A DNA stretch of 32,000 bases from Candidatus Thalassarchaeaceae archaeon. GTDB lineage: Archaea; Thermoplasmatota; Poseidoniia; Poseidoniales; Thalassarchaeaceae. The notes beneath the pieces were generated by a model, which was not told the DNA's origin, ran no database searches, and saw only the letters and a list, made by a program, of their open reading frames with translations. The stretch lies in NCBI GenBank assembly GCA_045568075.1, contig JBJLBP010000001.1, positions 660,001 to 692,000 of the forward strand, given 5' to 3'. This document shows positions 4,881 to 28,367 of this stretch, piece after piece. Numbering within the stretch: the stretch's first letter is position 1; every line of letters begins with the position of its first letter. The translations under genes and the position numbers were made by a program.

Positions 4881-4899
4881 GCGCCCTATTCTTCTCTTC

Positions 4900-4947
4900 G
4901 TTGATTTTTCTGAATCAACCTTAATTTCGGCCCCGAAGGGGGCCGAA
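4900..4947 (+). terminator. Two tandem stem-loops downstream of the ccm genes (putative transcript end/insulator)
   Basis: Hairpin A at 4900-4919: gttgatt-tttctg-aatcaac, 7-bp stem. Hairpin B at 4926-4947: ttcggcccc-gaag-ggggccgaa, 9-bp GC-rich stem. Both lie in a T-rich context 20 nt after the small ORF stop. Confidence 0.45.
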
Positions 4948-5012
4948 TGCTCTCCCGACCTGCTCACCAACCCTTCAAACGGGGCAGGTCTGCCGGAAGT
5001 TGGGGGAGCACC

Positions 5013-6065: not shown

Positions 6066-6067
6066 CC

Positions 6068-7683: not shown

Positions 7684-7708
7684 GACCCGCCGAAGCGGGT
7701 CGAGTCCA

Positions 7709-8908: not shown

Positions 8909-9034
8909 TTCACTCAGCAAACAAAGAGGAAATCGAGGGTATATCAAGACTGGCAATCCGCTACGCAAGTGTAAGTCTGTTTAGGAGCGGTGCTGACCGG
9001 TCTGTTTAGGAATGGATTGTCGATACCACCTGCT

Positions 9035-10135: not shown

Positions 10136-10151
10136 ATCTCTTCTTGGAGTC

Positions 10152-10817: not shown

Positions 10818-10912
10818 AACCCCCTTCGCTCCGAGAGCACTGAAGGGACCTTCCAACGCCGTGCTACGCACGGCCGGACCGTTCATAGGGAGTGGTCCGG
10901 TCGCCGGCCTCG

Positions 10913-12226: not shown

Positions 12227-12330
12227 GCCACTGCTCGACGGATTATTCACGTCGATTCTTTTCGCGTGCGAGGACTCGTTCAATCGAAGTCGTGAAGGCT
12301 CAGTGTTCAGCCGAGCGGCTGAGGGATTCG

Positions 12331-14112: not shown

Positions 14113-14168
14113 TGCAAACAGTTCAGGCATAGGGAATAGTGATAATCTCAGCAAGTGCGCCAATCTTC

Positions 14169-17100: not shown

Positions 17101-19238
17101 TCGATGGCTCGGTTGCACAGTATTCCTGCTCTGCGGGGACCTTCGCGGCTAATATGGGACAAATCGCCTGTGATGCAGCGGCTCCAGGGTACTACGTGCC
17201 CGCTGTCGCCGCTGACGCTCAGATTCCTTGTGCACTCGGATCTTGGCAAGCCTCTCAGGGAGCGACCGAGTGCGCAACCGCCGACCCTGGGCATTATGTC
17301 GATCAGGAGGCCTCCACAATGCAGACAGCTTGCGCAGCGGGCTCATACAATCCAAGCAGTGGTTCGATCGACTCAGATGACTGCATGGCAGCCGATGCTG
17401 GAAGTTACGTAGGCAATGAAGGCTCAGCCGAGCAATTACTCTGTCCAGCAGGGACCTATCAGCCAGCACCGGGTCAGTCAAGTTGTATCGATGCTGACTT
17501 CGGTTACCATGTGCCGACAGATGGTTCGACGGGACAGATTGGTTGCAGTATGGGATCCTACCAAGGAGAACGAGCCGGCACAGAGTGTCTGACAGCTGAG
17601 CCCGGCCATTACGTCGATTCTCACTTTGCATCCGCTCAGCAAGCCTGCCTCGCGGGCACATACAATCCCAACAGTGGATCAACCTCGGCTAACGATTGCA
17701 TCGAGGCGAACTCAGGATACTTCGTCGCTCATACAGGATCATCCGCTCAAGAGGCATGCGAATTAGGAACCTATCAGCCGAGCGCAGGATGGTCAAACTG
17801 CCTCGTAGCCGACCCTGGTTTCTATGTTGATACGATGGCTGCAACAGCCCAAATCGCTTGTGAGGCAGGTGACTACAACCCGAACTCGGGGTCGGTCACG
17901 GCCTCAGCCTGTTCCGATGCAGACCCAGGAAACTACGTCCCTGACCCCGCCTCCTCTGCCCAGATTCCATGTGAGGAGGGAAATTATCAGAACCTCCGCG
18001 GACAGACCGAGTGCAAATCCGCGGGCCTCGGTTATTACGTCGATTCCCCGTCAGCAATCTCACAAAATCCAGCCCCTATTGACTACTACATAGACACCGA
18101 AGGAGCGACTGAAGCACTGCCTTGCCCTAATGGGCAGATGACAATGGTGGAAGCAGCCAAGGATGTCAGCGATTGTCACATCGATACCGACGGCGACCGA
18201 ATTCCCGACTTCCTCGACAGAGACGATGACGGCGACGGTATCGACGACGGTTGGGATCTATGTGATTACGGCTTGATGAACTGGACCAGTACCAAATTAA
18301 ACGACTGGGATCAAGATGGCTGCGAGGATACCATCGAGGACAATGACGACGATAATGACGGATACCTCGATGACAATGATGTCCTCCCGCTCGACCCCGA
18401 AGAATGGCTCGACACTGACGGCGACGGAATCGGCAATAACGCGGATACCGACGACGACGGCGATGGTATTCCTGACCTTGAAGAGCAGAGTCTCGGTTTG
18501 GATCCGCTCGTTGCAGATTACGATGGCGATGGATATAACGACAGCATCGACGCTTTCCCCAAGGATGCTGATGAATGGATTGACACCGACGGCGACGGGG
18601 TCGGAGATAATTCTGACAGGTTCCCGACGATCAAATTCTACCAGAATTACGTTCAGGCCTCGATTCATCTTGTGATTGGCCTGATCATCCTCGGTGTCAT
18701 CGGCTTCAGTGTGCGCATGGGAATGGGTCGAAGTGAGAAACCTGAGGCCGATGATAGCACGCACGAATTACGTGAGATTGGAGGTGTCGAAGTAAGAATT
18801 TCGGCCGAGGATATGCTGTATGATGACGAGCCGGTTCCAGAACCAGAGCCTGAGCCTGAATTCACGCCACCTGTAGCGATGTTCGATTTGGACTCGGCTC
18901 AGCCTTCGGTGGCAGAAGTCGAGGAAGACGAACCAACGACTGAGCCGATGGCTTGGGATCTAACTCATGAGGCCGAGTCGGAGGAAGAATCTCTCGAAGA
19001 AGACTACGACGAGTCAGCCGATGAAGTATCAGAGGTAGGCGAGCTTGACCTAGGGTCATTACTCGATACGGCTCCGCCACCAAAGCCACGCGTCGAAGCT
19101 CCTGAGGATGCTCAAATCAACGAGCATGGACAGAAGGTTTGGCAAGATGCAAACGACGATATTTGGGTGCAGAACCCCGACGGCAGTCTACTGAAACACA
19201 ACGTATTGACTGGAGCCTGGGAGCCATACACGCAGTAG
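14169..19238 (+). CDS. Giant (1,689-codon) type-I membrane surface protein: N-terminal signal/anchor, RCC1-like beta-propeller, Asp-rich Ca-binding repeats, PPC-like domain, ~20 Cys-containing ephrin-receptor-like (GCC2/GCC3-type) repeats, second Ca-binding block, TM, acidic cytoplasmic tail
   Basis: ATG 14169 (MLNEETKRTIALGICTLFFGVTMLGFLIG); the track uses GTG 14139. A single uninterrupted frame. The domain evidence is listed in the sub-features and findings. Confidence 0.9.
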   Translation: MLNEETKRTIALGICTLFFGVTMLGFLIGSQGATLVLGVEEEADFTHGSGPTLNVRGSEAGSVFSHSVLNVADDGPIVVLANGTTIEWSAGSAVYSEDSVISSSGAGQCSILSNYSMYCTGSNNYGQLGLGNTAFSAGYVSLSPEPVVVDEGKDHSCAILVDASLWCWGRNHHGQIGDDSTTNRVSPVQIDLGTNVDVVAVSAGEDHTCAITDTGDVKCWGYNIRGQLGDGTTNDSYVPIEANHSTGLRAVSLVTSGRSTCAIFDNGSVGCWGNKYTVFSDNGAATANVHLVDLGAGATATMLDGVGSHTCAVIDDGSMQCWGVNTHGQLGDGTCSSTINSACSAENIFPGEGDSTVQVNLSAGLSVLAAATSTDSTCALLSDDSLRCWGAQSGEFDNTSDSMLNPYELSFTDGAHVAFTDQDMDGDGTRNIFDTHQTGDDDGDGVIDTADDYPNNPARWTDCDDGKYGRLICTDADAGHSAPGNTLVQTQCETGTFQPYTGQSTCLDASAGHYSDSDGATSQSACASGYYNAMVGQSSCTAAPAGSFASTTGGDAGATNTTALPLSVMSANYSATVNGGSDTSDVFSLDLPRNAWFSANLTSPMGQDFNIDLLNETFDMVSFSATNATQEEVSTSAAGNASGFYYIRIMYSSGSTGPGNYSLVIDLRSTSGSMSQIGSTATLVDAEHGISTTLCGVGTWQNQVGSTSCNAASAGHYVYGTGATTQTACSPGYYQPTTGQTTCIIASTGYYVPTSGAASQTAASPGYYVNVSGSSFQQACAAGTYQTSAAQTTCFAANPGYYVPTAGQANMTICDVGTYQPNSGQTSCIDADPGNYVPNQGATAQSQCLVGTYQPYSGQWACLNAEPGHYVPTVASTSQIACVTGTYQPASGQDKCDSASAGYYVNSTAAVSQDPCLPGTYQPSIGQTECLAADAGHYVDTQAATAQIACSAGSYNPNTGADEASDCMLADTGHYVALDGSVAQYSCSAGTFAANMGQIACDAAAPGYYVPAVAADAQIPCALGSWQASQGATECATADPGHYVDQEASTMQTACAAGSYNPSSGSIDSDDCMAADAGSYVGNEGSAEQLLCPAGTYQPAPGQSSCIDADFGYHVPTDGSTGQIGCSMGSYQGERAGTECLTAEPGHYVDSHFASAQQACLAGTYNPNSGSTSANDCIEANSGYFVAHTGSSAQEACELGTYQPSAGWSNCLVADPGFYVDTMAATAQIACEAGDYNPNSGSVTASACSDADPGNYVPDPASSAQIPCEEGNYQNLRGQTECKSAGLGYYVDSPSAISQNPAPIDYYIDTEGATEALPCPNGQMTMVEAAKDVSDCHIDTDGDRIPDFLDRDDDGDGIDDGWDLCDYGLMNWTSTKLNDWDQDGCEDTIEDNDDDNDGYLDDNDVLPLDPEEWLDTDGDGIGNNADTDDDGDGIPDLEEQSLGLDPLVADYDGDGYNDSIDAFPKDADEWIDTDGDGVGDNSDRFPTIKFYQNYVQASIHLVIGLIILGVIGFSVRMGMGRSEKPEADDSTHELREIGGVEVRISAEDMLYDDEPVPEPEPEPEFTPPVAMFDLDSAQPSVAEVEEDEPTTEPMAWDLTHEAESEEESLEEDYDESADEVSEVGELDLGSLLDTAPPPKPRVEAPEDAQINEHGQKVWQDANDDIWVQNPDGSLLKHNVLTGAWEPYTQ
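14481..15350 (+). other. RCC1-like repeat region (about 6 blades)
   Basis: Recurring blade signature: YCTGSNNYGQLGLGNT, LWCWGRNHHGQIGDDSTT, VKCWGYNIRGQLGDGTT, VGCWGNKYTVFSDNG, MQCWGVNTHGQLGDGTC, LRCWGAQSGEFDNT. Each is preceded by an H(S/T)CA(I/L/V) strand. Boundaries are approximate. Confidence 0.75.
16251..18176 (+). repeat. In-frame array of ~18-19 degenerate 33-37-aa Cys-pair repeats (C-x-x-G-[TS]-[YW]-[QN]-P-x-x-G-Q-x-x-C-x-x-A-x-x-G-x-Y-V ...), ephrin-receptor-like/GCC2_GCC3-type
   Basis: Example units: CDVGTYQPNSGQTSCIDADPGNYVPNQGATAQSQ, CLVGTYQPYSGQWACLNAEPGHYVPTVASTSQIA, CLPGTYQPSIGQTECLAADAGHYVDTQAATAQIA. Two to three further units lie upstream at ~15585-15830, before the PPC-like domain (~15858-16172). 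Confidence 0.8.
18177..18625 (+). repeat. Asp-rich thrombospondin-type-3-like calcium-binding repeats (DxDxDGxxDxxD)
   Basis: DTDGDRIPDFLDRDDDGDGIDD, DWDQDGCEDTIEDNDDDNDGYLDDND, DTDGDGIGNNADTDDDGDGIPD, DYDGDGYNDSID, DTDGDGVGDNSD. A shorter block of the same type lies at ~15430-15540. A TM helix (ASIHLVIGLIILGVIGFSV) follows at ~18656-18712. Confidence 0.75.
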
Positions 19239-19338
19239 AGGAGACCCCGTTTCGTTGTGTTTTCCACAACCGAACTGACCAATCGCGCGCGTCGCATTGA
19301 TAATCCGACACCTGATGCGAGAGTCACCGGTGAGAGAA

Positions 19339-19794
19339 ATGATAGACATCGATAACGAACATATCCCAACAATCGAGGCAAGCGCCCACTGCGATGGACC
19401 CTGTGGAGTCTACGACCCAGCGAGCGCTCGAGTAGCCGCGGAGGCGGTCCAATCAATGACTAAGAAAATGGTTGCACTCAGTGAAAGTAGCGCAGATTGC
19501 AGTTCTGCATCATACATCAACACCATGAGCCGATACGCAGTAATCAAGGAAGAAGAATCACAGAAGTGTAAGGACGAATTGTTGATTCTCTGGACCGACT
19601 TCTTCAAGCCTCAACACCTAGAGACAATTCCAGACCTGCACGACACATTCTGGCAGGCCGCAAAGCTCTGCTCCGCCTGCAAGGTCGAAGTCTCAGAACA
19701 ACATGCTCAGGAACTAATGGATGCGGTAGAAGCGATTCATCACATGTTCTGGGCTGCCAAGGGCCGTGACGTCCCATGGATACGCGCTTCCTGA
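19339..19794 (+). CDS. sodN: Nickel-containing superoxide dismutase precursor (Ni-SOD)
   Basis: The Ni-hook HCDGPCGVYDPA (canonical HCDLPCGVY) starts at 19387, directly after a short leader ending ...IEASA. ATG 19339 is preceded by SD-like GGTGAG. Alternative starts are ATG 19315 and TTG 19297. Confidence 0.85.
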   Translation: MIDIDNEHIPTIEASAHCDGPCGVYDPASARVAAEAVQSMTKKMVALSESSADCSSASYINTMSRYAVIKEEESQKCKDELLILWTDFFKPQHLETIPDLHDTFWQAAKLCSACKVEVSEQHAQELMDAVEAIHHMFWAAKGRDVPWIRAS

Positions 19795-20072
19795 ATGTCG
19801 TCGTGAAAGGCGACTCAATGTGGCCTACGCTCAAGCAGGGTAGCACTGCTAAGTTTGAGAGAATTGACCCAAACTCAGTATCTGTAGGGCAAGTAGTATT
19901 GTTAGATCATCCATTCATGCCAAATCTAAGGATAATCAAGAGAATACAATCTATAGAGGATAGACAATTATTCCTGGTGGGGGATAATCCAGACCCAACC
20001 GCCAGTGAGGATAGCCACAACTTTGGCATGGTAGATATTGCGTTAGTCATCGCAGTTCTTTCTCAAGAATGA
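19776..20072 (+). CDS. sodX: Ni-SOD maturation protease (S26 signal-peptidase-like, SodX)
   Basis: 98 aa. Ser block VVKGDSMWPTL, Lys block LRIIKRI, and GDNPDPTASEDSHNFG. Overlaps the sodN 3' end by 19 nt. Size and linkage fit the sodN-associated protease family. Confidence 0.8.
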   Translation: MDTRFLNVVVKGDSMWPTLKQGSTAKFERIDPNSVSVGQVVLLDHPFMPNLRIIKRIQSIEDRQLFLVGDNPDPTASEDSHNFGMVDIALVIAVLSQE

Positions 20073-20078
20073 TGGAAT

Positions 20079-20240
20079 TTATTGCAAAGGGATAACCAGT
20101 CCTTTTGGTGGTCTAAGCACCCAAATTAACCAAATTATTGAAGCTAAATTTATCGCTATTGCAAGGTAGTGTACAGTTTCCATTGGTCTGTCCGTCACTC
20201 TTGTGAATATGGATTCAATCACAATGAAATTGATTCCCAT
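20079..20240 (-). CDS. Hypothetical 53-aa single-TM ORF in the AT-rich spacer (weak)
   Basis: Hand-found: MGINFIVIESIFTRVTDRPMETVHYLAIAINLASIIWLIWVLRPPKGLVIPLQ. No recognisable family. It could be a chance ORF in AT-rich DNA. Confidence 0.15.
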   Translation of the reverse strand: MGINFIVIESIFTRVTDRPMETVHYLAIAINLASIIWLIWVLRPPKGLVIPLQ

Positions 20241-20272
20241 ATATATGCTAAATATCCATCCAAGAAATGAAA

Positions 20273-21253
20273 TTAGAATTGGATGACATTAGCACCCCAG
20301 GCTAAACCGCCGCCAAAGGCAGCGGTTACAACCAAATCACCCTCTTTGATGAGCCCTTCATCCATCGCCTCACGCATTGCAATAGGCACACTCGCACCGG
20401 CGGTATTGCCGTATTTGTGGAGATTTGTGAAAGTCTTAGACATCGGTAATCCAAGATTCTCCATACCTGTCTTGATGATGTTGATATTTGCCTGATGGGG
20501 TATCACAAAATCGACCTCATCAAGCGTCTTACCGACTCTCTCAAGCGCCGCATGGACCGCTTGCGGAAATGCCTCAATAGCAAAGTTCCAGACTGCTCGA
20601 CCGTCCATGTGGAAGTATTGCATACCCTCTTCGAAGTTGGCGCTGGGGATCGGTACTCGGACCCCTCCGGCGGGGATCTCTATGACTTCCGCGCCACTAC
20701 CATCACTCATCAGCCACGAGCCTAGGACGCCCTTTCCATCCGCAACCTTGCCGAGCACTGCCGCACCTGCTCCGTCTCCAAATAGCACGCACGTTGCTCG
20801 GTCCTGCCAATTGAGGATTCGAGAATAGATTTCAGAGCCGACCACAAGCACGTGGTCGTAACCCGGTGTCCCGACGAATCGGGCACCGATATCCAATGCA
20901 TGGACCCAGCCGGCGCAGACGGCATTGATGTCGAATGCGCCGCAATCAACGCAGCCTAATTTGTGCTGAACGATGCCTGCAGTCGAGGAGAGTGGCACGT
21001 CTGGTGAGGAGGTGGCGAGGATGACGAGGTCGATGTCAGCTGGGGTGAGTCCGGCGTCGTCCAAAGCCAGTTTGCAGGCTTCAACGGCGAGATCGGAGGT
21101 GTGCGTGTCTGCGTCAGCGATTCGCCTCTTCTTCATCCCCGTCTTAGTGGTGATCCACTCGTCGCTGGTCTCGACAATCTCCGCCCAATCCTCATTGCTC
21201 ATCTCATGAGGTGGAACATACGCTCCGAGCCCGATGATGCCCACAGATGTCAT
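20273..21253 (-). CDS. fabH: 3-oxoacyl-ACP synthase III (KAS III / FabH family)
   Basis: 326 aa. N-terminus GIIGLGAYVPP, catalytic Cys block NAVCAGWVHAL, His block IPHQANINI, Asn block YGNTAGASVP, and the C-terminal GGGLAWG. Confidence 0.85.
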   Translation of the reverse strand: MTSVGIIGLGAYVPPHEMSNEDWAEIVETSDEWITTKTGMKKRRIADADTHTSDLAVEACKLALDDAGLTPADIDLVILATSSPDVPLSSTAGIVQHKLGCVDCGAFDINAVCAGWVHALDIGARFVGTPGYDHVLVVGSEIYSRILNWQDRATCVLFGDGAGAAVLGKVADGKGVLGSWLMSDGSGAEVIEIPAGGVRVPIPSANFEEGMQYFHMDGRAVWNFAIEAFPQAVHAALERVGKTLDEVDFVIPHQANINIIKTGMENLGLPMSKTFTNLHKYGNTAGASVPIAMREAMDEGLIKEGDLVVTAAFGGGLAWGANVIQF

Positions 21254-21300
21254 GCTATCACCCGCTGCGCGAGTGCGGCTATCTTTCAGTCATTCCGACT

Positions 21301-22836
21301 TCAATCGTGCTTGAGACAGATGTTCATTGGCTCTGAGAAGAATCCGAGACTCCAGCGGCCACCCTCTCTGCCAACGCCGCTGTCCTTGACTCCGCCGAAG
21401 GGCACGCGCAAGTCGCGGTGCAGCCATGTATTGACCCAGACCATTCCCGTATCAATCGATTCGGCGACCCGACGTCCTTTGTCGAGGTCGCCGGTCCAAA
21501 CGCTTCCAGCCAAGCCGTAGCGGGTATTGTTGGCAATAGCTACGGCTTCTTCCTCGGCCTCGAATCGGTGAATCGTTACGACCGGTCCGAAGATCTCCTC
21601 GGTAGAGCAGCGGGCGTCGGGCGAAAGTCCTGCAATCACCGTCGGTGCCAGCCAGTTTCCGTGCTCGAACTCTTTGGGAAGGCAGGGGTGGCCTCCAGTC
21701 AGAACCTCTCCTCCCTCTTCCTGTGCGAGGGCTACGTAGCCCTCCACTTTGGCGAGGTGGTCGGGAGAGATGAGTGCACCGAGTTCGGTCTCATCGTTAC
21801 TTGGGTCGCCGATGCGCATCGATTCGACCGAGTCGACGAATCGTTTGACGAATTCGTCGTAAATCCCTGATTGCACTAGAATACGACTGCCACATAGGCA
21901 GACCTGACCTTGGTTGAGGAAGGCAGCTCGGGTAACACCCGGGACGGTTTTTTCAAGGTCACAATCATCGAAGATTATGCTGGCGTTTTTACCGCCGAGC
22001 TCGAGGCTGAGTTTCTTGAATTGTGGAGCGGCGGCGGCTGCGACCTTGGCTCCGGTGTCCGTGCCGCCGGTGAAGGAGACAAGGTCGACATCGGAGTGAG
22101 TAGTAAGTGGCCCTCCGGCTCCGGCTCCGTTCCCGTGCACGAGGTTGACGACTCCTGCAGGTAGTCCAACCTCGTCGATGGTTTCCATCAGTAGATTCGC
22201 TGTCATCGGAGTTAGTTCGGAGGGCTTACAGACTACTGTATTGCCCATGCCAATGGCCGGCGCAACCTTCCATGACAGGAGATAGAGGGGAAGATTCCAC
22301 GGTGTGATCAATGCAGCAACGCCGACCGGTTTTGACACGACTACATTGGTCGCGTTATCCATTTCGAATATCTCATCGGGTGAATCCGCCTTCTCGCGGA
22401 TAAGCCCAGCAAAGAAGCGGAAGTTGGCGACTGATCGGTAGGCATCGACAGCGCGTGCCAGTGCGATCGGCTTACCTGTATCGCGGCTCTCAAGGGCTGC
22501 GATATCCTCGTATTTTGTCTCTAGAGCATCGGCGATTCGATCTAACCAGTCAGCACGCTCAGCAAAGTCCAGAGCACCCCAATCCGGAGCAGCCGCGCGC
22601 GCTGCAATAACAGCTGCATCGACATCATCCGGACCAGACAACGGCACGCGTGCAAACCGGTAACCGGTTGCAGGTTCGAGGACGTTCAACCAGTTGTTCT
22701 CGTCGGCCTCGTTCCCAGAGTGTCCAACAAACTCTCCACCTATGTAATTCAACAAATCGAGCGGTGCTGCCCCGTCTCGGTCCCGCTCGCAGGGAACGCA
22801 CCCGGATTCACAGCACTTCTCAGGCTCCAAATTCAA
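21301..22836 (-). CDS. NAD(P)-dependent aldehyde dehydrogenase with an N-terminal CCxSGCxxC (oxidoreductase-like) extension
   Basis: ALDH blocks: LNYIGGEFV, ITPWNLPL, catalytic Glu LELGGKNA, catalytic Cys GQVCLCGSR, EEIFGPV. The start codon is TTG at 22836 and overlaps the stop of the upstream gene (TTGA). No in-frame ATG exists upstream of the ALDH core. Confidence 0.85.
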   Translation of the reverse strand: MNLEPEKCCESGCVPCERDRDGAAPLDLLNYIGGEFVGHSGNEADENNWLNVLEPATGYRFARVPLSGPDDVDAAVIAARAAAPDWGALDFAERADWLDRIADALETKYEDIAALESRDTGKPIALARAVDAYRSVANFRFFAGLIREKADSPDEIFEMDNATNVVVSKPVGVAALITPWNLPLYLLSWKVAPAIGMGNTVVCKPSELTPMTANLLMETIDEVGLPAGVVNLVHGNGAGAGGPLTTHSDVDLVSFTGGTDTGAKVAAAAAPQFKKLSLELGGKNASIIFDDCDLEKTVPGVTRAAFLNQGQVCLCGSRILVQSGIYDEFVKRFVDSVESMRIGDPSNDETELGALISPDHLAKVEGYVALAQEEGGEVLTGGHPCLPKEFEHGNWLAPTVIAGLSPDARCSTEEIFGPVVTIHRFEAEEEAVAIANNTRYGLAGSVWTGDLDKGRRVAESIDTGMVWVNTWLHRDLRVPFGGVKDSGVGREGGRWSLGFFSEPMNICLKHD

Positions 22837-24011
22837 CCCTCCTGATTACCCTCATTGGAGAAAGGGTCGGAGCGAGTCATAGCTTCAGTATACTCTTTCC
22901 AGTCCATGGAGAAGCGGTCTCGATCGGGGTCCCATTCGTCCCAGGTGACAACTTCCTCGAGGGCTGAGCGGTAGCTGTCTGGAACAATTCCTGGGACGAT
23001 AAACGCCTTCTGCCGGTGCAGTGGATACGGGTTGCGCAATTGGATACCCAAGACACCCAATACTGCTCGTGCCACATACCAAGTTGCTTGAGAGTTCCAT
23101 CCGTGTGCGATCTTGATTACGATTCCAAGTCCCTTGGGCCAGTCCGGATGATCAATTGCTAATCCCAAGAGACCATCTGCACCTTCTTTTGCAATCAATT
23201 TGCCTTCACCTGCTTTGAGGCAAGTAGAATCGAGTCGATTGAAGCCACCGATGAGGTCTGGGTGACGGTTCATCGCTTCCCAGATCCAGTCCTTATCACG
23301 GTTGGTTGCGAGTCCTGCGAACATCACTGCCAGTTCGTCGACGGTGTTTGAGACGGTTGGAAATCCGCAGCCGTCCTTGGCTACGCGCATCGGCTCCCAA
23401 TCGGGCTTACCCATGTAGGTGCGCAGGGTCTCGAGATACTTCGGGAACCAGGGTGAGCTTGGGAGTGTGTAGCCGGCGCGGTTCATGCCCATCTTTCGCA
23501 TTGCCTTCAGGATGGCTGCGTGTTCTCCTGAACAGGTGTGGAACCAGCGGCGAGGTCGACGTACTTGGCGTCCAAATTGGATGAGGGGGACGTCGAGGGG
23601 GCACTGCATGAGCCCCCACTCGGATTCTGAGAGTAGTGATTGTGCGGCTGCGACGTGTTCGGTGTCACCATTGTGAGAGGAGCAGGCGATTGCTTTCTGC
23701 TTCCAATCGAGTTCATCGAGGGCGCCGGTGAATGGTTTCATCATCAGTGGTTTCATCATCGAGCGTCCATAGACGAGGACATTACCGCCGAAAGAATGGA
23801 TGATTTCGTCTCCATGGGCCCAAGCGATGGCGCCATGGATAGTGTTCTCTGAGACATCCATACGACGGAAATCAACGAGAGGCTCCCATTCGACATCGCG
23901 ACCAGTGGCGATCCCCTCATGCTTCTCACCGAGTGGATTCGTTGGAAATACGGCCGACCCCGGTCGACCGGGAGCGACGCTGGACGGTTGCTCATTCTTG
24001 CGCGCGCTCAT
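22833..24011 (-). CDS. Asparaginase-II family (PF06089-like) amidohydrolase
   Basis: Blocks are collinear with Rhizobium-type L-asparaginase II as I recall it: RSMMKPL, ACSSHNGDTEHVAAAQSLL, HTCSGEHAAIL, KDGCGFPT, AKEGADGLLG. The ATG overlaps the upstream stop (ATGA). Confidence 0.7.
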   Translation of the reverse strand: MSARKNEQPSSVAPGRPGSAVFPTNPLGEKHEGIATGRDVEWEPLVDFRRMDVSENTIHGAIAWAHGDEIIHSFGGNVLVYGRSMMKPLMMKPFTGALDELDWKQKAIACSSHNGDTEHVAAAQSLLSESEWGLMQCPLDVPLIQFGRQVRRPRRWFHTCSGEHAAILKAMRKMGMNRAGYTLPSSPWFPKYLETLRTYMGKPDWEPMRVAKDGCGFPTVSNTVDELAVMFAGLATNRDKDWIWEAMNRHPDLIGGFNRLDSTCLKAGEGKLIAKEGADGLLGLAIDHPDWPKGLGIVIKIAHGWNSQATWYVARAVLGVLGIQLRNPYPLHRQKAFIVPGIVPDSYRSALEEVVTWDEWDPDRDRFSMDWKEYTEAMTRSDPFSNEGNQEG

Positions 24012-25252
24012 TCGACCCCTCCGTTCACTGCCGGAGCGACCTTCGTCATGAATGCCTCCATGTTGCGTTGGACTCTCTCTGAATCATGATTGAAGAAATC
24101 GAACCAGCACATCAACCGATCTTCGGGGTCGAATCGCTCACGAATCTGAGCGGCGACTTCCTCGACATTACCAATCACCGCATTGTCAGTCGCTCGCTCG
24201 ACCTTGGCCGGATCGATTGTCCCTTCCAATGCACTCCAGTAGGTTGTCAGCGCGGCCCTCGCCTCTTCGCGAGCCGCCGCGCTGCGCTCTTCCGCAGTCA
24301 GACCATTCTCATCGTTGACGAAGACCATGATTGTCCGTGGCATCATGTCGCGCGTCCATGAGCCTCCATTGGGGTGGTAATGCTCAGACATCCGTTGATG
24401 CGTTGATTCGATGATATGTGGAGGGGTAATTGAGAGATTGAAAACCTGCACAGGGGCCCACTGATTGACCTCCTCTTGCAAACTTGCATCGTGGCTTCCG
24501 AGTACTAGGTTCAACAGGTCTCGGCGCCATTTCTGAGGGATTGTTTTGATCTCTTCGAAGTTGTATCTCGGCGCGATTTCGATTGATTCAGGCGCCGAAT
24601 CAAGCCCATGCAATTGTTGCGCTGCTTGCTGAACTCGTTCCCAATCTTCGTCGGAGCGGAAGTTTGCTCGGGCGAGAATGGTTTTGCGAATCATCTCGGT
24701 GGAGATGACTTCGCCGTTTAGCAGCCGCAGAAAAATCTCTGATGCCTCTGCGAAGATTTGACCGCGTAGTGCTGGCCATGCTGCTTCTTCGACCATGTCG
24801 CGTGGGACGATGCCGTAGGGGCGAGCCATGAATTCGAAGCGGCCGGCCGAGAAACCGATGTGCAATTTACGCTGCTCTTCGGGATTCATGCCATGGAGAG
24901 CGAGGAAAGAGCCAACGCGCTCGGCTTGAGGGATTGGGCCACCGCTGGCCAGAATTGACATGACTGCACTTCCAACCTCTATCCTCTTCGTGCGCGCTAA
25001 CATTGCTGTTGCTACTTGAAAGAAGTCTGTGCAAAGACCAACTTCGCCGGGGTAATGTGGGACGACAGGCTTTGAGTTGCCCTTTTGCACTTCGGTTGAA
25101 AGATGAGCTTGGGCTACCCAGCCAATGCCGAATCCAAGATCGTCTGCCTTCTCGGCTTGGTCGAGGAAATTTGCGAACATCTCGCTCTCACTTGGAATAT
25201 AACCGGATGTGTCCGGCGTTTGCGAGATGGAGAAGAAGATGTCGAATTTCAT
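24008..25252 (-). CDS. LLM-class (luciferase-like) flavin-dependent monooxygenase/oxidoreductase
   Basis: MKFDIFFSISQ... N-terminus, DDLGFGIGWVAQAHLS, and a length of ~414 aa typical of the LLM fold. ATG 25252 is preceded by SD-like GAGGA; the track ORF starts at TTG 25261. Confidence 0.7.
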   Translation of the reverse strand: MKFDIFFSISQTPDTSGYIPSESEMFANFLDQAEKADDLGFGIGWVAQAHLSTEVQKGNSKPVVPHYPGEVGLCTDFFQVATAMLARTKRIEVGSAVMSILASGGPIPQAERVGSFLALHGMNPEEQRKLHIGFSAGRFEFMARPYGIVPRDMVEEAAWPALRGQIFAEASEIFLRLLNGEVISTEMIRKTILARANFRSDEDWERVQQAAQQLHGLDSAPESIEIAPRYNFEEIKTIPQKWRRDLLNLVLGSHDASLQEEVNQWAPVQVFNLSITPPHIIESTHQRMSEHYHPNGGSWTRDMMPRTIMVFVNDENGLTAEERSAAAREEARAALTTYWSALEGTIDPAKVERATDNAVIGNVEEVAAQIRERFDPEDRLMCWFDFFNHDSERVQRNMEAFMTKVAPAVNGGVE

Positions 25253-25264
25253 CGAAATCAATCC

Positions 25265-26062
25265 TCAGATCGACCGCATTCTACCGCCATCGACTGCGAG
25301 TGATACCCCACGGATGGCACTAGACGATGGGAGACAGAGATAGGTGACGGCTGCTGCTGTTTCCTGTGGATCGATTAGCCGTTGAATCGGAACTGAATCC
25401 ATCCAAGCGGTGCGAACTTCTTCGACTGACTTTCCAGTCTTGTCCGAAATCGAACCGGCCAGAGAACCGAGTCGGTCGGTATCGGTGAAACCCGGTAGGA
25501 TGTTGTTGATGGTGATGCATGGAGCGAATTCACGAGAGAGGGACTTGGACCACGAAGCCATTGCTCCCCTCAAAGTGTTGGACAATCCGATATTGTCAAT
25601 CGGTTCACGAACCGAGGTCGAAATGATATTCACAAAGCGCCCATAACCAATCTCTTCCATTCTGGGCGCAAGAATCTGAGCGATTGTGTGAGCTGCATGC
25701 AGGTGACGTGCGAACGGCCCGTCGAATTCGTCGAGTTTGTTTCCGAGCAAGGGTCCGCCGGGGGGACCTCCTGCATTATTGATGACAATCTCAACCATAC
25801 CGAGGCCAAGTACAGCCTCTCGAACGGCCTCGACATCTTCCAAATCAAGAACCAGCATCGAATGACCGGAACCATGCATTTCGTCAAGTAAGGTTTCGAG
25901 GTCTTCAGCCGAGCGCGCACAAGCGATTACCCGCGCTCCCGCGCGAGCAAGCATCAGAGCACTCGCCCTTCCAATCCCCTTGCTGGCCCCACAAACAAGT
26001 GCAGTCCGGCCAGCAAGTACATTCTCAGCAAAGGGGAAATCATCTCCAGTAAGTCCAGTCAT
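25265..26062 (-). CDS. Short-chain dehydrogenase/reductase (FabG-like), atypical catalytic motif
   Basis: Cofactor motif ALVCGASKGIGRA, NNAGG, and a strong SD GAGGAGG upstream. SNTLR sits at the expected YxxxK position (see finding). Confidence 0.8.
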   Translation of the reverse strand: MTGLTGDDFPFAENVLAGRTALVCGASKGIGRASALMLARAGARVIACARSAEDLETLLDEMHGSGHSMLVLDLEDVEAVREAVLGLGMVEIVINNAGGPPGGPLLGNKLDEFDGPFARHLHAAHTIAQILAPRMEEIGYGRFVNIISTSVREPIDNIGLSNTLRGAMASWSKSLSREFAPCITINNILPGFTDTDRLGSLAGSISDKTGKSVEEVRTAWMDSVPIQRLIDPQETAAAVTYLCLPSSSAIRGVSLAVDGGRMRSI

Positions 26063-26082
26063 CCATCTTCCTCCTCAATCTT

Positions 26083-26820
26083 TCAGTCGATGTAGTGCGC
26101 ATAAGTCTGTTCAGCGAGTTTATGATTGACTACTTCGAGAATATCAGGCCCAGCATTGCGGAAAGTGGGATGTTCGCTCTCTCCCTGAGGATGTCTCATC
26201 TCGTCCCAGCGCCCTGCTGAATAAGCCACCAGTGCCTCTTTCATTAGGGCACCTGCTAGAACCAGTGTTTCGTAACAGAGGTCTTCGTAGGTCATTCCTC
26301 GTGTCACTGCTACCTCGCGACGTAGAAGCAGTTCGCCAGTGTCGATGCCATTGTCGCAGAAATGGGTGGATGAACCGATTGGGATATCGTGGTAAACCGA
26401 CCACGCGGGACTCGCGCTGCCACGGCAATCTGGAAGCAATCCAGGGTGTGAATTGATGACTCCATCCGCGGGATGGTCGAGGATTTCGCCGCGGATGATT
26501 CTTGTGCCACCAAAGACGATCAGGTCAAGGTCGATTTCTCGGATATGAGGCATCACTTGTTCGGAGTTATGGATGGGGACTTCGATATGTGGGACGTCGA
26601 TCCCTTGTTCTGCCAAATCGGCCAATTGAGCCTCGATAGTTGGAGCGATATCGTTTCCTTCGATACGCTTGAGGAACTTCTCGCGCTCCTCATCACCGAT
26701 TGCAGAATCCTCGGTGATGACGATGGTTGGAACGAAGCCTTCTGAGAGGATTTGTCGAAGCATCTCGCGACCGTATGGGTGCTCTTTCAGCAGCAGATAC
26801 GCAAACTTTGGCTTCACCAT
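26083..26820 (-). CDS. Formyltransferase-family protein (Formyl_trans_N-like catalytic domain)
   Basis: 245 aa. Asn/His block VINSHPGLLPDCRGSASPAW and Asp block NGIDTGELL, which together form the N-H-D catalytic triad pattern of folate-dependent formyltransferases. Confidence 0.7.
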   Translation of the reverse strand: MVKPKFAYLLLKEHPYGREMLRQILSEGFVPTIVITEDSAIGDEEREKFLKRIEGNDIAPTIEAQLADLAEQGIDVPHIEVPIHNSEQVMPHIREIDLDLIVFGGTRIIRGEILDHPADGVINSHPGLLPDCRGSASPAWSVYHDIPIGSSTHFCDNGIDTGELLLRREVAVTRGMTYEDLCYETLVLAGALMKEALVAYSAGRWDEMRHPQGESEHPTFRNAGPDILEVVNHKLAEQTYAHYID

Positions 26821-26864
26821 GGTCCCCGCTTTGCGGAGGGGCCTTAGATACCCGTTCTTTTCGG

Positions 26865-28274
26865 TCAGGGAGTGACTCTTGATCGATCTCTGGGGAAGAG
26901 GACGACTTCTCGGACATTGCCCGCGCCTGTGAGTATCATCAACAAGCGGGCAACACCCAGTCCCCAGCCGGCGTGCGGTGGCGCGCCGTAGCGGAATCCG
27001 TCTGTGTAGAAAGTGAAGTCAGCAGGATTCAAATCCATGTTTCGTAGATTTTGCTCGAGAACATCCACACGATGTTCTCGCTGTCCACCAGAAGTCATCT
27101 CGTCGCGCCCGTAATTCAAATCGAATCCGCGCGACAGCTGGCCTCCCGTCGAGCCCTTCTCAGATTCATCATGATAGATGTAGAACGGTTTCATTGACAT
27201 CGGCCAGCGCGGCAAAAAGTGGAATCCGGGGTACTTGGCTGCGATGATATCGCAGTGATGGCTCTCGATATCTTCTCCCCACTCAATCTCGCCACCACCA
27301 TTCTGCACAATCTCAATCGCTTCACAATAAGGGATGCGAGGGAAGGGGAGGCTAGGGATTTCGACGGTAACCGGGTCTTGGTCTTGGCTTGCGCGGTAGG
27401 TGTTGATGGCTTCGAAGAGGTGTAGGTCATTGGCTGCAACCTGACTCCAGATGTGGTGGATCATGCGCTCCTGTACTCCCATGACGTCTTCGTCGTTCAT
27501 CCATGCTCCCTCGATATCGAAGGAGATGAATTCGTTCAAGTGACGGTAAGTGTCATGCTTCTCGGCGCGGAATGCGGGGCCGATTTCGAAGACGCGCTCG
27601 AGTCCTCCTAGAACTGCGAGTTGCTTGTAGAGTTGGGGTGACTGGCTGAGGAAAGCTGGTGTGTCGAAGTACATCATCGGGAAGAGATTGGTTCCTCCCT
27701 CACTCGCACTGGCGATGATTTTCGGCGAATTCATTTCGTTGAATCCTTCGCCGATGAGGTGGTCGCGGCCGTATTGTAGGACCTTACTACGGAGTTGGAA
27801 CATCGCATTGACATGGGCTCTGCGCAGGTCGAGGTGACGGTTGTCTAGGCGGATGTCGAGGCCTACGTTGACATCGTCGGTGATTCCTACTGGTAGTGGA
27901 GTTGCTGCTGCTGAGAGAATGTTTGCCTCAGAGACTGTAATTTCGTACTCTGGAGGTGGGGTTGGCTCGCCTTCCTTGGTCTTGGGCGGGCGCTTTTGGG
28001 CGACCACTCCTGTAACTTGAATGGTCGATTCACGAGAGGCTGATTGTACTGCTGCGAATGTATCCTCATCCATGTTGTCCTTCTTGAGGAATGCCTGGAT
28101 GTGTCCGGTTCCATCGCGTAGCATGACGAAAGCGATTGCACCACGGCCGCGGACTGTTTCCGCGTAACCAGCAATGGAGACTTCAGCGCCGATTAGATCA
28201 GCGCCACCGTTCACAACCTGGCCGATTGTATGCGTGCGGAATGCGGTGGGGTGCCAGTCGGCGCTGTCCCTCAT
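26865..28274 (-). CDS. aspS: Aspartate--tRNA ligase, archaeal/eukaryal type (class IIb)
   Basis: ATG 28274; the track uses GTG 28280. An OB-fold N-terminus. LSQSPQLYKQ is characteristic of AspRS rather than AsnRS. Motif 2 is GPAFRAEKHDTYRHLNEF, motif 3 is GAPPHAGWGLGVARLLM, and the protein ends in LFPRDRSRVTP. Confidence 0.85.
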   Translation of the reverse strand: MRDSADWHPTAFRTHTIGQVVNGGADLIGAEVSIAGYAETVRGRGAIAFVMLRDGTGHIQAFLKKDNMDEDTFAAVQSASRESTIQVTGVVAQKRPPKTKEGEPTPPPEYEITVSEANILSAAATPLPVGITDDVNVGLDIRLDNRHLDLRRAHVNAMFQLRSKVLQYGRDHLIGEGFNEMNSPKIIASASEGGTNLFPMMYFDTPAFLSQSPQLYKQLAVLGGLERVFEIGPAFRAEKHDTYRHLNEFISFDIEGAWMNDEDVMGVQERMIHHIWSQVAANDLHLFEAINTYRASQDQDPVTVEIPSLPFPRIPYCEAIEIVQNGGGEIEWGEDIESHHCDIIAAKYPGFHFLPRWPMSMKPFYIYHDESEKGSTGGQLSRGFDLNYGRDEMTSGGQREHRVDVLEQNLRNMDLNPADFTFYTDGFRYGAPPHAGWGLGVARLLMILTGAGNVREVVLFPRDRSRVTP

Positions 28275-28367
28275 GACCACGGCGTTCGGACTTCGATTTA
28301 TGAATCGAATCTAAGACTGGCTTGACGTCAGGCCAATGCTTGAGTAGTCGAACGGCTCGGCGAAGTC

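What the first reader, a model, noticed from the sequence alone, without database searches (positions are those of the whole stretch)
20273..26820. Tightly coupled six-gene operon of unassigned function: formyltransferase, atypical SDR, LLM monooxygenase, asparaginase-II-type amidase, ALDH, KAS III
Seen in sequence: six minus-strand genes have junctions of 20 nt, 12 nt, an ATGA overlap, a TTGA overlap and 47 nt. SD-like GAGGAGG, GAGGA and GGTGA motifs lie ahead of the SDR, LLM and FabH starts. Established knowledge: each family is common, but I know of no characterised pathway with this combination. Inference, hypothesis (a): a Rut-like oxidative ring-opening or amide catabolic route. A flavin monooxygenase would be followed by amide hydrolysis, the resulting semialdehyde handled by the SDR or ALDH, and a formyl unit handled by the formyltransferase fold. 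Hypothesis (b): monooxygenase, then alcohol dehydrogenase, then aldehyde dehydrogenase, oxidising an alkyl compound whose acyl product is primed by KAS III. Hypothesis (c): biosynthesis of an N-formylated or acylated small molecule. The sequence alone does not discriminate between these.
Basis: partly seen in the sequence, partly recalled or inferred. Interest (0 to 1): 0.7.

Follow-up and report, generated by a model that had tools for sequence, protein, structure and literature searches.

The report
Alternative tryptophan-breakdown operon in marine archaea
The genes are real and form a conserved operon in Marine Group II archaea, and gene neighbourhoods in archaea and bacteria suggest an undescribed route that breaks tryptophan-derived kynurenine into aspartate and 2-aminophenol.

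Summary
Six tightly packed minus-strand genes of the stated families lie at 20273-26820, in a Marine Group II archaeon (Thalassarchaeaceae).

Synteny over 80 species redefines the unit. The conserved core is formyltransferase-SDR-LLM-AsnII-ALDH, preceded by a conserved 33-nt upstream element. FabH follows ALDH in only about half of the lineages. In 21 other species, ALDH is followed by orthologues of 2-aminophenol 1,6-dioxygenase (AmnB/AmnA) fused to 2-aminomuconate deaminase. The ALDH is closest to 2-aminomuconate-semialdehyde dehydrogenase.

In bacteria, orthologues of the LLM-AsnII pair sit beside tryptophan 2,3-dioxygenase and/or kynurenine formamidase in seven of eight contigs. One AsnII is fused to the formamidase. 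Three contigs also carry the amn genes.

Best reading, inferred from context and chemistry:
- The LLM inserts oxygen into kynurenine's aryl ketone (Baeyer-Villiger).
- The asparaginase homologue hydrolyses the resulting beta-aspartyl aryl ester or anilide to L-aspartate and 2-aminophenol.
- Amn enzymes and this ALDH then open and process the ring.
- The formyltransferase removes the N-formyl group.

Nothing was assayed. I found no description of this route in ten literature searches. The amn and TDO genes are not in this window.

The parts
26834..26866 (-). Conserved upstream element GACCGAAAAGAACGGGTATCTAAGGCCCCTCCG. It is a candidate promoter or operator of the operon. Its GGGTATC core ends 26 nt before the FT ATG.
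   Evidence: The 16-mer core GAAAA[T/G]AACGGGTATC (up to 3 mismatches) lies upstream of FT, in the FT orientation, in about 50 MGII loci and matches almost nowhere else in them, whatever the upstream gene. Spacing to the ATG is 24-27 nt in 38 of 50 loci. FT itself lacks an SD-like motif (10 of 56). No Rfam match.
26083..26820 (-). Formyltransferase-fold protein (245 aa), first gene of the operon. Proposed to remove the N-formyl group of N-formylkynurenine or of a later N-formyl intermediate, by hydrolysis or by transfer to tetrahydrofolate.
   Evidence: PF00551 48.7 bits. Best solved relative is the hydrolase domain of 10-formyl-THF dehydrogenase (4qpd, E 7e-11). The N123/H125/D160 motif (INSHPGLLP, GIDTG) is present. 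It occupies the operon slot held by a 248-aa alpha/beta hydrolase in loci L080 and L084. It is absent from the bacterial clusters, which carry KynB arylformamidase instead.
25265..26062 (-). Atypical SDR (265 aa) lacking the YxxxK catalytic pair (LSNTLR at 160-165). Role unknown. Proposed lower-pathway reductase, for example 4-oxalocrotonate to 2-oxoadipate; this assignment is weak.
   Evidence: PF13561 108 bits and PF00106 99 bits. Best solved relatives are uncharacterised Burkholderia SDRs 5va8/5idx, which share the same motif. Orthologues at 47-55% identity precede the LLM in bacterial contigs L091 and L177, which also carry amn genes. It is absent from L087-L090, L092 and L178; L178 has two FAA_hydrolase genes instead.
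24008..25252 (-). Divergent luciferase-like (LLM) oxidoreductase, 414 aa. Proposed flavin-dependent Baeyer-Villiger monooxygenase acting on kynurenine or N-formylkynurenine.
   Evidence: PF00296 44 bits on residues 4-104 only. No PDB sequence match at E<1. AF2 model pLDDT 83.6. Foldseek best matches are RslO1 7bip and bacterial luciferase 1luc, TM 0.6-0.75, 13-18% identity. Orthologues at 45-59% identity sit next to AsnII homologues in 7 bacterial contigs and near one in an eighth, with TDO and/or KynB in 7 of the 8 and a flavin reductase in L090.
22833..24011 (-). Class-3 (R. etli-type) asparaginase homologue, 392 aa. Proposed beta-aspartyl aryl ester or anilide hydrolase releasing L-aspartate and 2-aminophenol.
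   Evidence: PF06089 158 bits. Best PDB relatives are ReAIV/ReAV 8cly/7os3, E 2e-17. S84/K87/S112/K275 and C160/C215 align with ReAV S48/K51/S80/K263 and C135/C189; the Zn ligand K138 is E163 here. One homologue (P0252) is fused to a Cyclase/KynB domain. The ATGA overlap with the LLM was read.
21301..22830 (-). ALDH8-type aldehyde dehydrogenase, 509 aa (TTG start at 22830; alternative TTG at 22836). Proposed 2-aminomuconate-6-semialdehyde dehydrogenase (AmnC-like).
   Evidence: Best solved relatives are all 2-aminomuconate-6-semialdehyde dehydrogenases (4u3w 451 bits, 4i1w 445 bits). The substrate-carboxylate arginines of 4i1w (R120, R464) align with R132 and R472. TIGR03216 scores 557.6, below its cutoff of 693. 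It is followed by AmnB/AmnA::RidA in 21 MGII loci and in L091, L177 and L178.
20273..21253 (-). FabH (KAS III), 326 aa. Adjacent on the same strand but a lineage-specific neighbour, probably not part of the pathway.
   Evidence: NF006829 378.8 bits (cutoff 249) and TIGR00747 350 bits (cutoff 292). C113/H253/N283 motifs are present. It follows ALDH in 38 of 81 loci; in L056-L086 that position is taken by amn genes. There is no conserved SD-like motif before it (4 of 38), and it is absent from all bacterial versions.

Best explanation
The conserved unit is a five-gene archaeal operon: formyltransferase-fold protein, atypical SDR, LLM, asparaginase-II homologue and ALDH. It starts at a conserved upstream element. 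It appears to be the middle part of a non-canonical tryptophan/kynurenine catabolic route that joins tryptophan 2,3-dioxygenase to the 2-aminophenol meta-cleavage (amn) pathway.

Proposed chemistry, all inferred:
1. Tryptophan 2,3-dioxygenase (TDO), encoded elsewhere in this genome, makes N-formylkynurenine.
2. The formyl group is removed by the formyltransferase-fold protein, by hydrolysis or by transfer to tetrahydrofolate. KynB does this job in bacteria, and an alpha/beta hydrolase holds that operon slot in two other archaeal loci.
3. The LLM, using reduced flavin and O2, inserts oxygen between the aryl ring and the ketone carbon of kynurenine (Baeyer-Villiger). The product is the 4-(2-aminophenyl) ester of L-aspartate, which can rearrange to N4-(2-hydroxyphenyl)-L-asparagine.
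4. The asparaginase homologue hydrolyses this beta-aspartyl derivative to L-aspartate and 2-aminophenol.
5. AmnB/AmnA opens 2-aminophenol to 2-aminomuconate semialdehyde.
6. This ALDH oxidises the semialdehyde to 2-aminomuconate.
7. The RidA domain deaminates 2-aminomuconate.
8. The SDR may reduce the product; this assignment is weak.

Shown here: gene families, orthology, synteny and fusions. Not shown: any substrate or reaction. FabH is a neighbour, not a pathway member.
For: (1) Core synteny. FT-SDR-LLM-AsnII-ALDH keeps its order across L001 plus 80 Poseidoniales species loci. Counts: LLM 73, ALDH 71, SDR 63, FT 56.

(2) Link to 2-aminophenol cleavage.
- In 21 of those loci, two LigB paralogues (the second fused to RidA) and an amino-acid permease lie near the cluster, downstream of ALDH in 20 of them.
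- In L079 these match the 2-aminophenol 1,6-dioxygenase beta subunit (3vsg_B, 371 bits, E 4e-110), the alpha subunit (3vsg_A, 157 bits) and 2-aminomuconate deaminase (6izh).
- The window ALDH's five best solved relatives are 2-aminomuconate-semialdehyde dehydrogenases, and it keeps their two substrate arginines.

(3) Link to kynurenine. Orthologous LLM (45-59% identity, full length) and AsnII homologues are adjacent in bacterial contigs.
- L088: TDO-LLM-AsnII-KynB.
- L087: TDO-LLM-AsnII::KynB fusion.
- L089: KynB-LLM, divergent from AsnII.
- L092: LLM-AsnII-KynB, with TDO nearby.
- L091: SDR-LLM-AsnII-ALDH-AmnB-AmnA::RidA-KynB.
- L177: TDO, then SDR-LLM-AsnII-ALDH-AmnB-AmnA::RidA-KynB.
- L178: TDO-LLM, then AsnII, then ALDH-AmnB-AmnA::RidA-KynB further along the same 19-kb stretch.
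(the cyclase genes score 203-210 bits on TIGR03035 arylformamidase.)

(4) MGII carries TDO. It lies divergent from FT in L064, L066 and L095. L095 shows the whole set on one contig.

(5) Chemistry.
- The AsnII homologue keeps the asparaginase catalytic Ser-Lys tandems.
- The Baeyer-Villiger product of kynurenine is a beta-aspartyl derivative, the acyl group this family hydrolyses (inference).
- L090 has a flavin reductase next to LLM-AsnII.

(6) Three unrelated deformylase-type proteins (FT fold, alpha/beta hydrolase, KynB) alternate in these clusters.
Against: - No reaction was tested. The Baeyer-Villiger step and the beta-aspartyl substrate are deduced from context and chemistry only.
- The LLM has no close characterised relative. 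Its best structural matches have 13-18% identity and are not specifically Baeyer-Villiger enzymes.
- The window has no AmnB, AmnA, RidA or TDO gene within its 32 kb or the next 10 kb to the left. For this genome the partners are assumed to lie elsewhere.
- The ALDH score is below the NCBIfam equivalog cutoff.
- The alpha/beta-hydrolase replacement of FT rests on two loci, and that protein has no match to a known kynurenine formamidase.
- The SDR role is a guess from a small co-occurrence pattern.
- Two more distant AsnII homologues (L093, L094; 35-36% identity) lack an adjacent LLM.
- The literature library lacks most subscription-journal papers, so prior description cannot be excluded.
Confidence: 0.55

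Rival explanations
1. The cluster belongs to tryptophan/kynurenine catabolism, but with different chemistry. The LLM would be an aromatic hydroxylase (a kynurenine 3-monooxygenase analogue), or would act on another intermediate. The AsnII homologue would hydrolyse a different amide. AmnB/AmnA would cleave a substituted aminophenol such as 3-hydroxyanthranilate.
For: The context evidence is the same as for the main explanation. Flavin monooxygenases commonly hydroxylate aromatics. One distant AsnII homologue sits next to a kynureninase-like gene (L093).
Against: The clusters contain no kynureninase, 3-hydroxyanthranilate dioxygenase or ACMS decarboxylase. The AmnB homologue scores 371 bits against characterised 2-aminophenol dioxygenases. 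This reading leaves an asparaginase-type Ser-Lys amidohydrolase, translationally coupled to the LLM, without a substrate.
Confidence: 0.14
2. The operon degrades some other N-aryl amide or aminophenol precursor taken from seawater, such as an anilide or an asparagine-linked aromatic compound. The TDO/KynB neighbourhood in bacteria would then reflect only loose clustering of aromatic-amine genes.
For: TDO is not next to the operon in most MGII loci, and its usual neighbours are housekeeping genes. An amino-acid permease of unknown specificity follows the amn genes.
Against: TDO and/or KynB are linked to LLM-AsnII in 7 of 8 bacterial contigs with very different G+C content (34-72%). One is a gene fusion, and several are overlapping operon genes.
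Confidence: 0.1
3. Biosynthetic reading. The LLM-AsnII module would make 2-aminophenol, or an N-formyl or acyl derivative, as a building block for a secondary metabolite such as a phenoxazinone, with FabH priming an acyl chain.
For: Bacterial contigs L087-L090 and L092 have TDO/KynB/LLM/AsnII without ring-cleavage genes nearby. FabH is adjacent in the window.
Against: In MGII and in L091, L177 and L178 the module is joined to the ALDH, a ring-cleavage dioxygenase and a deaminase, which destroy 2-aminophenol. FabH is not conserved with the module. No tailoring or export genes were seen.
Confidence: 0.08
4. One reading: a Rut-like pyrimidine or N-heterocycle ring-opening route, or monooxygenase, alcohol dehydrogenase and aldehyde dehydrogenase oxidising an alkyl compound that KAS III then primes.
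For: The family composition superficially resembles Rut (LLM, amidohydrolase, and RidA in relatives) or alkane oxidation (LLM, SDR, ALDH).
Against: There is no RutA or RutB-type match; the LLM's only NCBIfam hit is 20.5 bits. The ALDH is of the aminomuconate-semialdehyde type. The SDR lacks the catalytic Tyr/Lys. FabH is not syntenic in half of the lineages or in any bacterial version. The neighbours are kynurenine and aminophenol genes.
Confidence: 0.04

Closest known systems
2-aminophenol meta-cleavage pathway (amnBACD of Pseudomonas sp. AP-3; cnbC of Comamonas CNB-1)
   Same: The window ALDH is closest to AmnC-type 2-aminomuconate-semialdehyde dehydrogenases. In 21 related archaeal loci and 3 bacterial contigs, orthologues of AmnB, AmnA and the RidA-type deaminase lie near it, directly downstream in most.
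   Different: The feeding module is FT/SDR/LLM/AsnII rather than a nitroarene or aniline route. The alpha subunit is fused to the deaminase. No AmnE-H genes are in the archaeal clusters. The amn dioxygenase genes are not in this window.
Kynurenine pathway of tryptophan degradation (TDO, KynB, KMO, kynureninase, HAO, ACMSD, AMSDH)
   Same: The entry steps (TDO and a formamidase function) and the AMSDH-type ALDH are the same.
   Different: No KMO, kynureninase, 3-hydroxyanthranilate dioxygenase or ACMS decarboxylase is present. An LLM plus an asparaginase homologue plus AmnB/AmnA sit in their place. The predicted by-product is aspartate rather than alanine, and no carboxylated intermediate towards quinolinate/NAD is formed.
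4-hydroxyacetophenone catabolism in Pseudomonas fluorescens ACB (Baeyer-Villiger monooxygenase HAPMO plus aryl-ester hydrolase, then ring cleavage) (my recollection, not checked here)
   Same: The logic matches what is proposed here: aryl ketone to aryl ester, to phenol plus acid, to ring-cleavage dioxygenase, to semialdehyde dehydrogenase.
   Different: The enzyme families differ. There it is a class B FAD/NADPH monooxygenase and a different esterase; here an LLM-type enzyme and a class-3 asparaginase homologue. The substrate is an amino acid.
Rhizobium etli class-3 L-asparaginases ReAV/ReAIV (PF06089)
   Same: It is the same Pfam family. The two Ser-Lys tandems and the two Zn cysteines are conserved.
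   Different: The match is weak (E 2e-17 to ReAIV). The Zn-ligand Lys138 is replaced by Glu163. There are about 40-residue N-terminal and about 60-residue C-terminal extensions. The gene is translationally coupled to an LLM, and in one bacterium it is fused to KynB.
Rut pyrimidine pathway (RutA LLM, RutB amidohydrolase, RutC RidA, RutF flavin reductase)
   Same: Both combine an LLM-class oxygenase, an amidohydrolase and, in relatives, a RidA protein.
   Different: No RutA or RutB family match was found. The amidohydrolase has a different fold. The context genes point to kynurenine and aminophenol.

Membership tests
Class-3 (R. etli-type) L-asparaginase, PF06089 | Profile match above the curated threshold | tested here: met
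   PF06089 158.4 bits against a cutoff of 25, covering residues 47-326. No NCBIfam model matched.
Class-3 (R. etli-type) L-asparaginase, PF06089 | Catalytic Ser48/Lys51 and Ser80/Lys263 tandems (PMC8602277) | tested here: met
   S84, K87, S112 and K275 are invariant in the 26-sequence alignment A2 and align with the ReAIV motifs.
Class-3 (R. etli-type) L-asparaginase, PF06089 | Zn site Cys135/Lys138/Cys189 | tested here: inconclusive
   C160 and C215 are present. The Lys position is E163 in MGII and is K, E or other residues in relatives. The paper reports that Zn is not catalytic.
Class-3 (R. etli-type) L-asparaginase, PF06089 | Hydrolysis of free L-asparagine as the physiological reaction | not testable with these tools
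   Context argues for another beta-aspartyl substrate, but no assay was possible.
Luciferase-like (LLM) flavin or F420-dependent oxidoreductases, PF00296 | Profile match and TIM-barrel fold of the luciferase type | tested here: met
   PF00296 44 bits against a cutoff of 27.9, N-terminal part only. AF2 model pLDDT 83.6. Foldseek probability 1.0 to RslO1, LuxA/B, Mer and SsuD, TM 0.5-0.75.
Luciferase-like (LLM) flavin or F420-dependent oxidoreductases, PF00296 | Membership of a characterised subfamily (RutA, SsuD, LadA, NtaA, Mer and others) | tested here: not met
   The only NCBIfam hit is TIGR03858 at 20.5 bits against a cutoff of 462. No PDB sequence match at E<1. Structural matches have 13-18% identity.
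Type II (LLM-type, two-component) Baeyer-Villiger monooxygenases | Ketone-to-ester oxygen insertion with reduced flavin supplied by a separate reductase | not testable with these tools
   The only indirect support is an FNR-type flavin reductase next to LLM-AsnII in L090 and the chemical fit with an asparaginase-type partner.
2-aminomuconate-6-semialdehyde / 2-hydroxymuconate-semialdehyde dehydrogenase (ALDH8-type, AmnC) | Equivalog-level profile score | tested here: not met
   TIGR03216 557.6 bits is the best hit but is below its cutoff of 693.25.
2-aminomuconate-6-semialdehyde / 2-hydroxymuconate-semialdehyde dehydrogenase (ALDH8-type, AmnC) | Closest characterised relatives and the substrate-carboxylate arginine pair | tested here: met
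   The five best PDB sequence matches are all AMSDH (441-451 bits). R120 and R464 of 4i1w align with R132 and R472.
2-aminomuconate-6-semialdehyde / 2-hydroxymuconate-semialdehyde dehydrogenase (ALDH8-type, AmnC) | Encoded with the ring-cleavage dioxygenase that makes its substrate | tested here: inconclusive
   Met in 21 related archaeal loci and in L091, L177 and L178. Not met in this window or the 10 kb to its left.
Formyltransferase, PF00551 | Profile match and the Asn-His-Asp catalytic motif | tested here: met
   PF00551 48.7 bits against a cutoff of 26.1. N123, H125 and D160 lie in INSHPGLLP and GIDTG. It is below the cutoffs of all named NCBIfam equivalogs (Fmt, PurN, ArnA).
FabH / KAS III | Subfamily profile above cutoff, and the Cys-His-Asn triad | tested here: met
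   NF006829 378.8 bits (cutoff 249) and TIGR00747 350.1 bits (cutoff 292). C113, H253 and N283 motifs are present. It is a FabH family member, but it is not a conserved member of this operon.
Rut pathway | RutA-type LLM and RutB-type (isochorismatase-fold) amidohydrolase | tested here: not met
   No RutA or RutB NCBIfam hits. The amidohydrolase is PF06089.

The most novel reading that the evidence does not exclude
There may be an undescribed branch of tryptophan catabolism. In it, a luciferase-like flavin monooxygenase performs a Baeyer-Villiger oxygen insertion into kynurenine. A class-3 asparaginase homologue then releases L-aspartate and 2-aminophenol, which feeds directly into the amn meta-cleavage enzymes. 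The route would occur in globally abundant Marine Group II archaea, other Thermoplasmatota and several bacterial phyla. In the archaea, a formyltransferase-fold enzyme may pass the formyl group of N-formylkynurenine to tetrahydrofolate instead of releasing formate.
Probability: 0.45. Interest if true: 0.85.

Novelty: new variant of a known kind. Interest (0 to 1): 0.72.

Why it matters
Marine Group II archaea are among the most abundant heterotrophs in the surface ocean, are uncultured, and have poorly known substrates. A dedicated, strongly conserved tryptophan/kynurenine operon would add an aromatic amino-acid sink to their ecology.

It would also assign functions to two orphan subfamilies: a divergent LLM and the non-rhizobial class-3 'asparaginases', which are annotated only as 'asparaginase' or 'hypothetical' in MAGs from Thermoplasmatota, Alphaproteobacteria, Myxococcota and Planctomycetota.

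Biochemically, it would be a new way to dismantle kynurenine. The expected by-product is aspartate rather than alanine. The ring would be opened as 2-aminophenol rather than as 3-hydroxyanthranilate, so the route bypasses the branch towards quinolinate and NAD.

The hypothesis can be tested directly with two recombinant proteins and commercially available kynurenine.

Tried and rejected
- A PDB sequence search with the LLM found nothing at E<1.
- The first AF2 model, built from a shallow MGII-only alignment, was unusable (pLDDT 58.8). Adding three bacterial orthologues fixed this.
- Foldseek gave only generic LLM matches, with no Baeyer-Villiger-specific signal.
- Ten literature searches found nothing on this gene combination or on a kynurenine-to-2-aminophenol route (one search was a syntax error).
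- Walking 10 kb beyond the left end of the window found Suf, Maf and protease genes but no amn or TDO genes.
- Clustering the neighbours of the MGII TDO-thiolase pair showed only housekeeping genes (heme A/O synthases, an acetyltransferase and others). The thiolase link to the pathway is therefore weak, and I do not rely on it.
- The sigma-70 promoter and intrinsic-terminator scan gave nothing above shuffled controls on the relevant strand, and it does not apply to an archaeon.
- Rfam found nothing at E<=1 in 19000-29000.
- The idea that the adjacent AspRS belongs to the operon was dropped. Its distance to FT varies from 44 nt to more than 4 kb, and the conserved upstream element follows FT, not AspRS.
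- The alpha/beta hydrolase that replaces FT could not be tied to known kynurenine formamidases by sequence.

Full report
**What is there.** The window comes from a Marine Group II archaeon (Candidatus Poseidoniales, family Thalassarchaeaceae). The closest database proteins carry those names. The same locus occurs on many TARA and other marine metagenome contigs.
- FabH, 20273-21253.
- ALDH, 21301-22830.
- PF06089 asparaginase-II homologue ('AsnII'), 22833-24011.
- A divergent luciferase-like protein ('LLM'), 24008-25252.
- An SDR lacking the YxxxK pair, 25265-26062.
- A 245-aa formyltransferase-fold protein ('FT'), 26083-26820.

The junctions are as described, with one exception. The ALDH more likely starts at the second TTG (22830), which gives a 2-nt gap instead of a TTGA overlap.

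**The unit redefined by synteny.** I aligned the AsnII protein with distant homologues from a search of cluster representatives. I used that alignment to fetch one locus per species from GTDB genomes. All 80 returned loci were Poseidoniales. Mapping the window proteins onto them shows FT-SDR-LLM-AsnII-ALDH in constant order at 54-98% protein identity. Some lineages have a TPR gene inserted between SDR and LLM.

FabH follows ALDH only in one part of the Thalassarchaeaceae (38 of 81 loci). The AspRS upstream lies at variable distance.

A 33-nt element (window 26834-26866) lies at a nearly fixed distance before the FT start in about 50 species, whatever the upstream gene. FT has no SD-like motif. 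SDR has one in 55 of 63 loci, the next three genes have weaker ones, and FabH has one in 4 of 38. I read this as an operon that starts at FT. FabH is a lineage-specific neighbour that may or may not be read through.

**Link to 2-aminophenol cleavage.** In 21 species loci, two LigB-family paralogues (the second fused to a RidA domain) and an amino-acid permease lie near the cluster. In 20 of them these genes lie downstream of ALDH; in L027 they lie upstream of FT on the other strand.
- The first LigB paralogue matches the beta subunit of 2-aminophenol 1,6-dioxygenase (3vsg_B, 371 bits, E 4e-110).
- The second matches the alpha subunit (157 bits).
- The best match of its RidA domain is 2-aminomuconate deaminase (6izh).
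- The five best solved relatives of the window ALDH are all 2-aminomuconate-6-semialdehyde dehydrogenases (441-451 bits), and both substrate-binding arginines are kept.

The ALDH therefore looks like AmnC. The genes upstream of it should deliver an ortho-aminophenol.

**Link to kynurenine.** Distant AsnII homologues (35-69% identity) gave the decisive contexts.
- P0252 is an AsnII fused to a Cyclase/KynB domain. Its contig reads TDO-LLM-AsnII::KynB.
- L088 reads TDO-LLM-AsnII-KynB, with overlapping genes.
- L089 has KynB-LLM divergent from AsnII.
- L092 has LLM-AsnII-KynB, with TDO nearby.
- L090 has a flavin reductase next to LLM-AsnII.
- L091 reads SDR-LLM-AsnII-ALDH-AmnB-AmnA::RidA-KynB.
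- The alphaproteobacterial MAG L177 has TDO, then SDR-LLM-AsnII-ALDH-AmnB-AmnA::RidA-KynB. Its proteins are 51-69% identical to the archaeal ones.
- L178 has two FAA-hydrolase genes, then TDO-LLM, then AsnII, then ALDH-AmnB-AmnA::RidA-KynB spread over the same 19-kb stretch.

The bacterial LLMs are full-length orthologues of the window LLM (45-59% identity). The cyclase genes score 203-210 bits on the arylformamidase model TIGR03035.

MGII also has TDO. It lies divergent from FT in L064, L066 and L095. L095 carries the whole set, from TDO to AmnA::RidA.

**Mechanism (inferred).** Kynurenine is an aryl ketone whose acyl side is an aspartate skeleton. A Baeyer-Villiger insertion with aryl migration would give L-aspartate 4-(2-aminophenyl) ester. 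This ester can shift to N4-(2-hydroxyphenyl)-asparagine. Either compound is a beta-aspartyl derivative, the acyl group that asparaginases hydrolyse. Hydrolysis gives L-aspartate and 2-aminophenol, the substrate of AmnB/AmnA.

This accounts for four otherwise puzzling facts:
- An asparaginase-family protein that keeps the catalytic Ser-Lys tandems of ReAV is translationally coupled to a flavin-type oxygenase.
- The pair sits between TDO/KynB and the amn genes.
- No kynureninase, KMO, HAO or ACMSD is present in the clusters.
- A flavin reductase neighbours the pair in L090.

The LLM fold is confirmed (AF2 pLDDT 83.6; Foldseek matches to RslO1, bacterial luciferase and other LLMs). No characterised subfamily fits it.

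**FT and SDR.** FT carries the Asn-His-Asp motif of formyltransferases and 10-formyl-THF hydrolases. No MGII locus has KynB, and no bacterial cluster has FT. In the two MGIIa-type loci where the region is visible, a 248-aa alpha/beta hydrolase sits in FT's place. I therefore assign FT to formyl removal. Whether it hydrolyses or transfers to THF is open, as is the order of deformylation relative to the LLM step.

The SDR co-occurs with the amn genes in L091, L177 and MGII. It is absent where the amn genes are absent, and from L178, which has AmnE/F-like FAA hydrolases. A lower-pathway reductase is a reasonable but weak guess.

**Limits.**
- Nothing was assayed.
- The window and the 10 kb to its left contain no amnB, amnA, ridA or TDO gene.
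- The ALDH is below the equivalog cutoff.
- The TDO-thiolase pairing in MGII lies within conserved housekeeping synteny and is not used as evidence.
- Ten searches of an 8-million-paper library found no description of this route, but subscription journals are largely missing from that library.

**Verdict.** The best explanation is a non-canonical kynurenine-to-2-aminophenol catabolic operon. My confidence in the full mechanism is 0.55, and higher for the general assignment to tryptophan/aminophenol catabolism. It is a new variant of a known kind of system, and my interest score is 0.72.

Noticed in passing
window 26834-26866 (-): A 33-nt element (GACCGAAAAGAACGGGTATCTAAGGCCCCTCCG) is conserved almost base for base in front of the formyltransferase gene in about 50 MGII species, at a nearly fixed distance from the ATG. 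It has no Rfam match. It could be a promoter, an operator for an unknown regulator, or a leader element.
   Followed up: partly
window 22789-22815 (-), ALDH residues 6-14: The ALDH N-terminus carries a CCESGCVPC motif. The same motif is present in L008, L027 and L074 and absent from L013, L021, L072 and L079. From memory it resembles the 'Oxidored-like' CCxSGCxxC mini-domain; this was not tested.
   Followed up: no
L095-L174 (metagenome loci), e.g. L066 4698-7097: In MGII-like contigs, tryptophan 2,3-dioxygenase is followed by an acetyl-CoA acetyltransferase (thiolase) in about 70 of 80 loci. Heme A/O synthase genes and other housekeeping genes are also conserved nearby. It is unclear whether the TDO-thiolase pairing is functional.
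   Followed up: partly
L079 7813-8712; L084 7740-8579: A 279-299-aa TPR protein is inserted between SDR and LLM in several MGII lineages (L056, L057, L069-L071, L073, L076, L077, L079-L085).
   Followed up: no
L079 15536-17227: The amino-acid permease that follows AmnA::RidA has a C-terminal EF-hand pair, which is unusual for an APC-family transporter. It is a candidate tryptophan or kynurenine importer.
   Followed up: no
L177 (GCA_020632795.1, JACKEV010000006.1) 4304-14473: An alphaproteobacterial MAG (72% G+C) has the same gene order as MGII, with 51-69% protein identity. This suggests horizontal transfer of the whole cluster between bacteria and archaea.
   Followed up: partly
window 19297-20072 (+): A nickel superoxide dismutase gene (sodN, TIGR02753 188.8 bits) and a small overlapping ORF that gene callers assign weakly to signal-peptidase families (Peptidase_S24/S26, SodX-like) lie convergent to FabH.
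   Followed up: no
window 14139-19238 (+): A 1699-aa protein has an N-terminal signal or anchor, RCC1-like repeats, a long run of about 30-residue Cys-containing repeats (Ephrin-receptor-like), an acidic calcium-binding-like region and a C-terminal transmembrane segment. It is probably a large surface protein.
   Followed up: no
L093 197-2524: A more distant AsnII homologue (36% identity, 61% G+C contig) is followed by a kynureninase-like gene (PF00266 plus KYNU_C) and has no adjacent LLM. This may be a different use of the family within kynurenine metabolism.
   Followed up: no
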